Assembly (NCBI RefSeq): GCF_009914755.1
Contig: NC_060929.1
DNA: 64,000 nt
Source of the DNA: the human T2T-CHM13v2.0 reference genome, Homo sapiens
Direction: 5' to 3' (one strand)
Shown: positions 27,922 to 31,238 of the stretch, one piece after another
Layout: each line of letters starts with the position of its first letter
Position numbering within the stretch: the first letter of the stretch is position 1
The notes under the pieces: generated by a model
The model's input: the letters and a program-made list of their open reading frames with translations, nothing else
Told to the model about the DNA's origin: nothing
Database searches by the model: none
Program-made: the position numbers and the translations under genes

Positions 27922-29493
<1,572 letters not shown>

Positions 29494-30559
29494 TTAAGAG
29501 TCATCACAAGAGTCAATTAAGAGGGTAAAGAAGTAGAACAAATGGATGATCCAACATAGTAGATGAACTCACAAAAAAAGGATGGAAACAGGTCATCTCA
29601 GAAGACAGTACAGCATATAGTGTTATCAGGTGAATAGACAGACAAGAATGTTAAACAGAAATATTCATGTAAAAACTAAACTTAAAAGAGATGAAAAAGT
29701 GGGGTCTCATCACTAATTTTTGATTATTCTTCTAGAATATTTCACTTCTGCTTTCTGAATAGAAACCCCTTTTCACCTTTTAATTTCATTTATATTATAA
29801 ATCATGTGCTACACATTCTTATTATCCTACCATCACTCTAAAAAACAAGGTATCTTCTGTATGCAAAATACTTTAACTCTCCTCCATCTATTTTCCTAAC
29901 AACTAACAAATAATAGAAAAATCCAATATCCTGCTACAGATTCAGTATCAGAGTCAAACTGAGAATACAGACGTAAATTCCACTACTCCCAATAAACTAC
30001 TTTCTATACATGTCAAGTAAAACTAGTAAAGTTCTCCCAGAAAAGCTGTATCTTCCTGACCCTAAGGTTTTGTTCATATACTCTCTCTCCAACACTGCTT
30101 GCCTTCACCCTCCTCCTTCAGCCTCATCAGCATTTATGTCATTCAGAGCAGTTACAGTTGCATGCTCTGAAAAATGTTTCTCAAATACGCTCACATCTCT
30201 TTAGACTCTTAATTTTCTCTGAACTTCTAAAACAGTAACTGTATTTGACATTTAATTTAATACAGTCATTTATCTGGGAATATTGCCTTTTAAAGCACAG
30301 CTTGTGTTCTTGAAAGGAATTTGCCTTCTATTGCCTTTAAAACCCTTTCAGGAAAGACAACAAATATAAACATATATATATACACACAAGAGACAGGATC
30401 AACAACAAATAGAACTCCTCTGAAAGGCTTCACAATTACTTGTTGAGTGACTACTAAATTCTCAGCATAGAAGCAAAGAATAGGAGATTTTGATAAGGAT
30501 AGAAACATAAACCTCAGGCACCAATCAATTAAAAAAACATAAATTGATATTTCACTTCC

Positions 30560-30682
30560 CTTGTCTCCCATCTGCCTGATATTCATCTGGATAGATCCAA
30601 TTTGATATGTCTCCCTTTATGATCCATGGCTCTTCTCCTTGTTCCAACTTGGAGATGACATCTGGTTTGGAAACTGGATACC
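30560..30682 (-). CDS. ZNF300: ZNF300 KRAB-B exon (123 nt, extended, non-canonical donor)
   Basis: tttaatag|GG TAT CCA GTT TCC AAA CCA GAT... [20 protein letters not shown]...[13 protein letters not shown]; ends CAAG|GGAAGT. Confidence 0.85.

Positions 30683-30905: not shown

Positions 30906-31238
<333 letters not shown>

What the first reader, a model, noticed from the sequence alone, without database searches (positions are those of the whole stretch)
30550..30590. ZNF300 KRAB-B exon lost its GT donor and needs a non-canonical GG donor
Seen: at the usual 96-nt KRAB-B end the sequence is CCAG|ATGAAT, a decayed GTGAGT. The best in-frame donor-like site before the TGA (CAA GGG AAG TGA) is 27 nt later, AAG|GGAAGT, which is consensus except at +2. 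The nearby GC (exon 107 nt) and GT (127 nt) sites are out of frame. 15+127+123+1550 nt gives 604 codons plus stop, the length I recall for ZNF300. Inference: full-length KRAB-ZNF output depends on a rare GG-AG intron competing with a frameshifting GT 4 nt away, which could act as a dosage throttle. Alternatively this haplotype carries a splice variant.
Basis: partly seen in the sequence, partly recalled or inferred. Interest (0 to 1): 0.7.

Follow-up and report, generated by a model that had tools for sequence, protein, structure and literature searches.

The report
ZNF300 GG-AG intron, already catalogued
The human ZNF300 gene really does splice one intron from a rare GG start instead of GT, but this is the normal human sequence and was listed in a 2014 survey of unusual splice sites.

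Summary
ZNF300 exon 5 (30560-30682, minus strand, 123 nt) ends AAG|GGAAGTGA. The other four introns are GT-AG, and the exons add up to 604 codons plus a stop.

It is not a CHM13 variant. Parada et al. 2014 (PMC4176328, supplementary file 3) list this intron in hg19 with the same length (1088 nt) and the same %GC. They call it GG-AG, U2-like, supported by 7 cDNAs, 14 ESTs and RNA-seq reads, and annotated in GENCODE v17.

The old KRAB-B donor at 96 nt is dead, now CCAG|AT. Six other zinc-finger genes and ZNF300P1 keep GT at that point. The 123-nt form is old, not a recent rescue: 6 of 8 mammalian orthologue proteins carry the nine extra residues, and two bats lack exactly those nine.

The GG site is the only strong U1-pairing site near the exon end.

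The "dosage throttle" idea is plausible from published reporter assays (PMC6280755) but untested for this gene. No annotated transcript uses the GT 4 nt downstream.

Verdict: real, rare, already known. I could not check the donor in other species.

The parts
30560..30682 (-). ZNF300 exon 5 (KRAB-B box plus a 27-nt extension), 123 nt
   Evidence: Hub annotation; acceptor TTTAATAG|GG and donor AAG|GG read; translates to a 40-residue peptide ending DEYQADGRQ.
30552..30562 (-). 5' splice site, positions -3 to +8: AAG|GGAAGTGA, with GG at 30559-30558
   Evidence: 8 of 11 positions pair with the U1 5' end in the canonical register; duplex -7.3 kcal/mol, similar to the exon 2 donor at -7.2. Listed as GGAG, U2_GTAG-like, score 83.6 in PMC4176328 supplementary file 3.
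30585..30586 (-). Decayed ancestral KRAB-B donor dinucleotide (now AT, in CCAG|ATGAAT) at the 96-nt point
   Evidence: In alignment A1, ZNF300P1 and six other KRAB zinc-finger genes have GT at this column.
30560..30586 (-). 27-nt exon extension encoding nine residues (DEYQADGRQ)
   Evidence: 85% identical to ZNF300P1 (23/27) against 56% (15/27) for the next 27 nt of intron (Fisher p=0.035). The nine residues are present in 6 of 8 orthologue proteins.
30554..30555 (-). GT at +5/+6 of the donor: a possible alternative cleavage register, giving a 127-nt exon and a frameshift
   Evidence: GAA|GTGAAATA, 5 of 11 U1 pairs, -2.5 kcal/mol. Its use would give a 93-aa KRAB-only product. No annotated transcript uses it (hub table).
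30552..30554 (-). In-frame TGA just inside the intron
   Evidence: intron retention ends the protein at 90 aa.
30527..30543 (-). U-rich tract TTTATGTTTTTTTAATT at intron positions +17 to +33: a candidate downstream splicing enhancer (inferred)
   Evidence: Located. That it acts as an enhancer is inference from the TIA1 dependence of GG donors in reporter assays. Not tested here.
29472..30559 (-). Intron 5: 1088 nt, GG...AG, 33.0% G+C
   Evidence: Length and %GC (32.9963) are identical to the hg19 entry in PMC4176328 supplementary file 3.
29472..29494 (-). Polypyrimidine tract (16 of 20 pyrimidines) and AG acceptor
27922..29471 (-). Coding part of the last exon (linker and zinc fingers), joined in frame to exon 5

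Best explanation
Intron 5 of human ZNF300 is a genuine major-spliceosome (U2-type) intron with a non-canonical GG-AG boundary. It is the normal human sequence and the only route to the 604-aa protein. The donor AAG|GGAAGT matches the U1 consensus everywhere except +2 (and -3). U1 can therefore dock in the normal register, as it does on GC-AG introns. Positions +4 to +6 (AGT) remain available for U6 to fix cleavage at G|GG; this step is inferred from textbook splicing mechanism. A strong polypyrimidine tract and AG acceptor complete the intron, and a U-rich tract 17-33 nt downstream of the donor may help (inferred). In evolutionary terms, the standard 96-nt KRAB-B donor was lost by G>A at +1, and the exon has long ended 27 nt further on. 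Orthologues from a monkey, carnivores, ruminants and a rodent encode the same nine extra residues. In all six, the codon over the old donor is D or Y (GAY or TAY), so the old +1 is A in them too. The intron was already catalogued in 2014 and is annotated by GENCODE and RefSeq.
For: The sequence and reading frame were confirmed. PMC4176328 supplementary file 3 lists ZNF300 chr5:150276535-150277623 (hg19, minus strand): 1088 nt, GGAG, U2_GTAG-like, score 83.6. Its support is 10 reads in the 16-tissue mix, 5 in GM12878, 7 cDNAs, 14 ESTs and 76 reads across 5 tissues. It is annotated in GENCODE v17 in three transcripts, including ENST00000274599.5. In the high-confidence sheet it is one of 32 GG-AG rows, of which 6 carry a GENCODE ID. 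The CHM13 intron has the same length and %GC as the hg19 entry. The survey removed junctions that lay over dbSNP135 variants. [quoted passage not shown] U1 duplex energies: GG site -7.3, GT+4 site -2.5, GC site -4.5 and the old 96-nt site -1.7 kcal/mol; the other ZNF300 donors range from -7.2 to -12.2. No U12-type 5' splice site or branch-site motif was found. At the 96-nt point, ZNF300P1 and 6 of 6 other KRAB-B exons have GT. Of 8 orthologue proteins, 6 have the nine residues and 2 bats lack exactly those nine.
Against: I saw no read-level data myself. Transcript support rests on one supplementary table and on the annotation. Published reporter assays rank GG as nearly the weakest donor dinucleotide (GC > TT > AT > GA > GG > CT) and as strictly enhancer-dependent. 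Efficient constitutive use here therefore needs help that I only infer. How much of the pre-mRNA is spliced at the GG site, at the +5 GT, skipped or retained is unknown. The donor dinucleotide in other species could not be seen, so the age of the GG itself is open.
Confidence: 0.9

Rival explanations
1. The GG donor is a deliberately weak site. It competes with the GT at +5/+6 (frameshift, 93-aa KRAB-only product), with intron retention (90 aa) or with in-frame exon skipping (563 aa), and so limits or regulates ZNF300 dosage.
For: Reporter assays: a CAG|GGAAGTAT donor was appreciably used only with both SRSF7 and TIA1 enhancers, and it lost to even weak canonical competitors. The abstract reports splicing at -1, +1 and +5 for all non-canonical dinucleotides weaker than GC. 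ZNF300 has GT at +5/+6 and a U-rich tract downstream. The alternative products were computed.
Against: The +5 GT site pairs poorly with U1 taken on its own (5 of 11, -2.5 kcal/mol). No RefSeq transcript in the hub table uses another donor for this exon. 7 cDNAs and 14 ESTs support the GG junction. ZNF300 was not found in the 11 searchable supplementary files of PMC6280755 (file 1 was not searched). I saw no quantitative data.
Confidence: 0.12
2. The GG is a private or polymorphic T>G variant of the CHM13 haplotype, and most humans have GT.
For: AAG|GTAAGT would be a perfect donor, one base away from the observed sequence. RefSeq annotation on CHM13 is projected from transcripts, so it would not flag such a variant.
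Against: hg19 lists the same intron as GGAG with identical length and %GC. The survey discarded junctions over dbSNP135 variants. 45 re-sequenced patients showed no splice-site variant.
Confidence: 0.03
3. The GG-AG junction is an alignment or reverse-transcription artefact, or the intron is removed by the minor (U12) spliceosome.
For: Non-canonical junctions are often artefacts (PMC4176328, passages). A 2-nt repeat (AG) sits at both ends of the intron.
Against: The survey classed it as U2-like with only 2 nt of direct repeat and low %GC, unlike its template-switching class. Support comes from independent cDNAs, ESTs and RNA-seq. The junction is the only one that keeps the 604-aa frame. No RTATCC 5' motif and no U12 branch motif are present.
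Confidence: 0.03

Closest known systems
Catalogued human U2-like GG-AG introns (Parada et al. 2014, PMC4176328), e.g. COL21A1, EFHC2, ELMO2, IDH3B, WDR13 and the testis-specific CPSF3 site
   Same: GG at +1/+2 with otherwise U2-like consensus, an AG acceptor and transcript support. ZNF300 is itself a row in that list.
   Different: Most of the 32 GG-AG rows are unannotated alternative sites (26 of 32 carry no GENCODE ID). The ZNF300 site is the donor used by the main coding transcript.
GC-AG introns
   Same: A mismatch to U1 at +2 is tolerated because the rest of the donor matches the consensus closely. Here 8 of 11 positions pair.
   Different: G at +2 is much weaker than C in reporter assays (ranking GC > TT > AT > GA > GG > CT).
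Reporter donor CAG|GGAAGTAT of Erkelenz et al. 2018 (PMC6280755)
   Same: An almost identical core (GGAAGT) with GT at +5/+6.
   Different: The reporter site needed both SRSF7 and TIA1 sites to be used. For ZNF300 the enhancers are only inferred.
ACTR10 AT-AG intron (Parada et al. 2014, Figure 2B legend, seen)
   Same: A non-canonical donor in a human coding gene whose evolutionary origin can be traced.
   Different: The ACTR10 site is reported as recently derived from GT in some primates. For ZNF300 I could not determine the state in other species.
Standard KRAB-B exon of KRAB zinc-finger genes (96 nt, CCAG|GT)
   Same: The first 96 nt are homologous and 96% identical to ZNF300P1.
   Different: The donor at 96 nt is destroyed (AT), and the exon runs 27 nt further to a GG donor.

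Membership tests
U2-type non-canonical GG-AG intron | Intron starts with GG (not GT, GC or AT) and ends with AG | tested here: met
   The sliding alternatives (GG-TA, AG-TT) are worse.
U2-type non-canonical GG-AG intron | The remaining donor positions fit the U1/U2-type consensus | tested here: met
   8 of 11 positions pair with U1, -7.3 kcal/mol. U2_GTAG-like, score 83.6, in PMC4176328 supplementary file 3.
U2-type non-canonical GG-AG intron | Polypyrimidine tract and AG acceptor | tested here: met
   16 of 20 pyrimidines before TAG|.
U2-type non-canonical GG-AG intron | The junction is supported by transcripts | tested here: met
   Seen only through the published table: 7 cDNAs, 14 ESTs and RNA-seq reads. 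I examined no reads directly.
U2-type non-canonical GG-AG intron | Not explained by a polymorphism of the reference | tested here: met
   GG in both hg19 and CHM13; dbSNP135 filter; no variant in 45 patients. I did not see allele frequencies in large cohorts.
U12-type (minor spliceosome) intron | 5' splice site RTATCCTT and branch site TCCTTAAC-like 10-26 nt from the acceptor (motifs recalled) | tested here: not met
   Neither motif was found.
GC-AG intron | C at +2 | tested here: not met
   G at 30558.
Canonical 96-nt KRAB-B exon | GT donor directly after the 96th nucleotide (CCAG|GT) | tested here: not met
   ZNF300 has CCAG|AT. ZNF300P1 and 6 of 6 other genes examined have GT.

The most novel reading that the evidence does not exclude
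The GG donor is not a recent accident. It is a weak site maintained by selection across mammals, since the canonical KRAB-B donor was lost before the boreoeutherian radiation. On this reading, splicing factors such as TIA1 or SR proteins set how much full-length ZNF300 is made, as against a 90-93-aa KRAB-only product. Bats would have escaped by keeping or regaining the 96-nt GT donor.
Probability: 0.1. Interest if true: 0.5.

Novelty: already known. Interest (0 to 1): 0.25.

Why it matters
Constitutive GG-AG introns in the main coding transcript of a human gene are rare. In the 2014 catalogue only 6 of the 32 GG-AG junctions were annotated at all. Such sites are useful test cases for splice-site predictors, and for variant interpretation at +2 positions. 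For ZNF300 itself, all full-length protein must pass through one of the weakest donor types known. That could make the gene unusually sensitive to splicing-factor levels, but this has not been shown.

Tried and rejected
1. CHM13-private variant: rejected.

2. U12-type intron: rejected, no motifs.

3. Other in-frame donors: candidates at exon lengths 57, 84 and 114 pair poorly with U1 (4-5 of 11), and the one at 144 lies beyond the stop.

5. Literature on the ZNF300 donor. Searches were 'ZNF300'+'splice' (46 papers, 20 listed), 'ZNF300'+'non-canonical' (15 papers), 'ZNF300'+'exon'+'intron'+'KRAB' (12 papers), 'ZNF300'+'splice donor' (3 papers) and 'ZNF300'+'sQTL' (2 papers). Judged by their listings, none deals with this donor. 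PMC6488596 and PMC12313397 were opened and are irrelevant. The only printed record I found is the supplementary table of PMC4176328; ZNF300 does not occur in its main text.

6. ZNF300 in the supplements of PMC6280755: 0 hits in 11 files, file 1 not searched.

7. The donor dinucleotide in other species: no tool here holds eukaryotic DNA other than the window's own genome, so this was not done.

8. Two paper-reading runs failed on term format. The first was re-sent with valid terms; the second was replaced by reading the sections.

Full report
**The observation**

On the minus strand, exon 5 of ZNF300 runs from 30682 to 30560. Its acceptor is TTTAATAG|GG and it ends ...GACAAG|GGAAGTGAAA. The intron therefore begins GG (30559-30558). 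It ends at a good acceptor, TTTTCTTCTTTTAG|AC. The other four introns of NM_052860.4 are GT-AG.

Joining the annotated coding parts gives 15+127+123+1550 = 1815 nt. This translates to 604 residues and one terminal stop.

- At 96 nt into the exon the sequence is CCAG|ATGAAT.
- The GC at 30575-30574 and the GT at 30555-30554 give 107-nt and 127-nt exons, both out of frame.
- Read-through meets TGA at 30554-30552.

The junction can slide by only one or two bases, because AG is repeated at both ends. That would give GG-TA or AG-TT, which are worse than GG-AG.

**Is it a variant of this haplotype?**

No. Supplementary file 3 of Parada et al. 2014 (PMC4176328) lists ZNF300 at chr5:150276535-150277623 (hg19), minus strand. 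I saw its rows through.

- Intron length 1088 nt, dinucleotides GGAG, type U2_GTAG-like, score 83.6.
- 10 reads in the 16-tissue mixture and 5 in GM12878.
- 7 cDNAs and 14 ESTs.
- 76 reads across thyroid, brain, ovary, testes and kidney.
- GENCODE v17 IDs ENST00000274599.5, ENST00000418587.2 and ENST00000446148.2.

The CHM13 intron (29472-30559) is also 1088 nt. Its G+C content, 32.9963%, equals the table's value to the printed digits.

The survey states that it discarded non-canonical junctions spanning indels or SNPs in dbSNP135 (passage). Separately, Prescott et al. 2010 (PMC2850616, passages) sequenced the six ZNF300 exons and adjacent splice sites in 45 Crohn's disease cases. They found only a synonymous SNP.

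In the survey's high-confidence sheet of 184 U2/U12-like sites, GG-AG occurs in 32 rows (hits 102-133 of the term). Six of those rows carry a GENCODE ID: COL21A1, EFHC2, ELMO2, one IDH3B junction, WDR13 and ZNF300. ZNF300 is not mentioned in that paper's main text. File 1 of its supplements could not be searched.

**How it can work**

I compared each candidate donor with the 5' end of U1 snRNA.

| Site | Pairs in register (of 11) | Duplex energy (kcal/mol) |
|---|---|---|
| GG site | 8 (mismatches at -3, +2, +8) | -7.3 |
| Exon 2 donor | 8 | -7.2 |
| GT 4 nt downstream | 5 | -2.5 |
| GC site | 8 | -4.5 |
| Dead 96-nt site | 9 | -1.7 |

The GG site is thus the only good U1 landing place near the exon end.

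By analogy with GC-AG introns, U1 would dock in the normal register despite the +2 mismatch. The intact +4 to +6 AGT would then let U6 fix cleavage before the first G. These two steps are inferred from the standard splicing mechanism and were not shown here.

No U12-type 5' motif or branch motif is present. The survey also classed the intron as U2-like.

Erkelenz et al. 2018 (PMC6280755; abstract, sections 4-6) tested the nearly identical donor CAG|GGAAGTAT.

- GG ranked second weakest (GC > TT > AT > GA > GG > CT).
- It lost to weak canonical competitors.
- It was considerably activated only when both SRSF7 and TIA1 sites were present.
- With SRSF7 alone, cleavage was at +1.

A U-rich tract, TTTATGTTTTTTTAATT, lies at +17 to +33 of the ZNF300 intron (30543-30527). 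It could play the downstream-enhancer role, but that is inference.

**History of the exon end**

A search of the window's own genome with the exon region gave 24 matches. I aligned ZNF300, the ZNF300P1 copy (L002) and the six further KRAB-B exons that were returned as loci (L003-L008). The other 16 matches were not examined.

At the 96-nt point, all six outgroups and ZNF300P1 have GT (CCAG|GTGAGT-like; ZNF300P1 has CCAG|GTGAAA). Only ZNF300 has AT.

The longer exon is nevertheless old. A search with the ZNF300-specific linker found 10 proteins at E <= 1e-10 among 164 candidates. Eight of them are orthologues in which the exon junction can be read.

- Six have nine residues aligned to DEYQADGRQ before DRK: Nasalis, Mustela, Neovison, Muntiacus, Ovis and Heterocephalus.
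- Two bats (Molossus isoform 2 and Phyllostomus) lack exactly these nine residues. That is what use of the 96-nt donor would give.
- A ninth, divergent sequence (P0009) is unclear, and P0010 was not aligned.

In the six long forms, the residue whose codon overlaps the old donor is D or Y (GAY or TAY). The old +1 is therefore A in those species too. This follows from the genetic code; I did not see their DNA.

Against ZNF300P1, identity changes sharply along the exon.

| Segment | Identity to ZNF300P1 |
|---|---|
| First 96 nt of exon 5 | 96% (92/96) |
| 27-nt extension | 85% (23/27) |
| Next 27 nt of intron | 56% (15/27) |
| Next 100 nt of intron | 63% |

The drop after the extension is significant at Fisher p = 0.035-0.036. 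The ZNF300P1 homologue also keeps an open 40-codon frame through the extension.

This suggests the 123-nt boundary was already in use around the time of the ZNF300/ZNF300P1 duplication. That duplication is itself old: identity is 73% over 1353 aligned nt.

At the GG position ZNF300P1 reads AA (CAAG|AAAAAT), which says nothing about whether the site was once GT. I could not see the donor dinucleotide in any other species, so the age of the GG is open.

Use of the GT at +5/+6 would give a frameshift and a 93-aa KRAB-only product. Intron retention would give 90 aa. Skipping exon 5 stays in frame and gives 563 aa.

The reporter work makes competition of this kind plausible. For ZNF300, however, I found no junction counts. 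The hub's table shows no alternative donor for this exon among the four RefSeq transcripts. ZNF300 does not occur in the 11 searchable supplementary files of PMC6280755. The throttle idea remains an untested add-on.

**Verdict**

This is a real, rare GG-AG intron in the main coding transcript of ZNF300. It is present in both hg19 and CHM13, it is annotated, and it was catalogued in 2014, so it is already known.

The 96-nt donor loss and the 123-nt exon are ancient rather than a recent rescue. Two bats use the short form. The GG site is the only strong U1 site at the exon end. The open question is whether the GG itself is ancient or a recent T>G change.

Noticed in passing
L002 (G000:C5:151478671-151478793, minus; window-style 74671-74793, outside the window): The ZNF300P1 homologue of the KRAB-B exon keeps an open 40-codon frame through the 27-nt extension. 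It shares residues with carnivore and rodent ZNF300 that human ZNF300 has changed (KR.IP and EN). It has GT at the 96-nt point and AA where ZNF300 has GG.
   Followed up: partly
P0004 (Molossus nigricans, isoform 2) and P0006 (Phyllostomus discolor): The bat ZNF300 orthologues lack exactly the nine residues encoded by the 27-nt extension. This implies an intact 96-nt GT donor in bats, either retained or regained.
   Followed up: partly
window 30926-31052 joined to 27922-29471 (minus): Skipping exon 5 would stay in frame and give a 563-aa protein with KRAB-A but no KRAB-B. No such transcript is in the hub table.
   Followed up: no
L001 against L002, 1353 aligned nt: ZNF300 and ZNF300P1 are only 73% identical over introns 4-5 and exons 4-5, with introns at 63-77%. 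The duplication therefore looks far older than the ape or monkey radiations.
   Followed up: partly
PMC3308164, footnote to Table 2: The CCDS quality-assurance description lists the accepted splice pairs as 'GT-AG, GG-AG and AT-AC'. This is probably a misprint for GC-AG.
   Followed up: no
P0001 (Nasalis larvatus, 723 aa): The predicted monkey protein carries about 120 extra N-terminal residues not seen in human ZNF300. This is probably an over-extended gene model.
   Followed up: no
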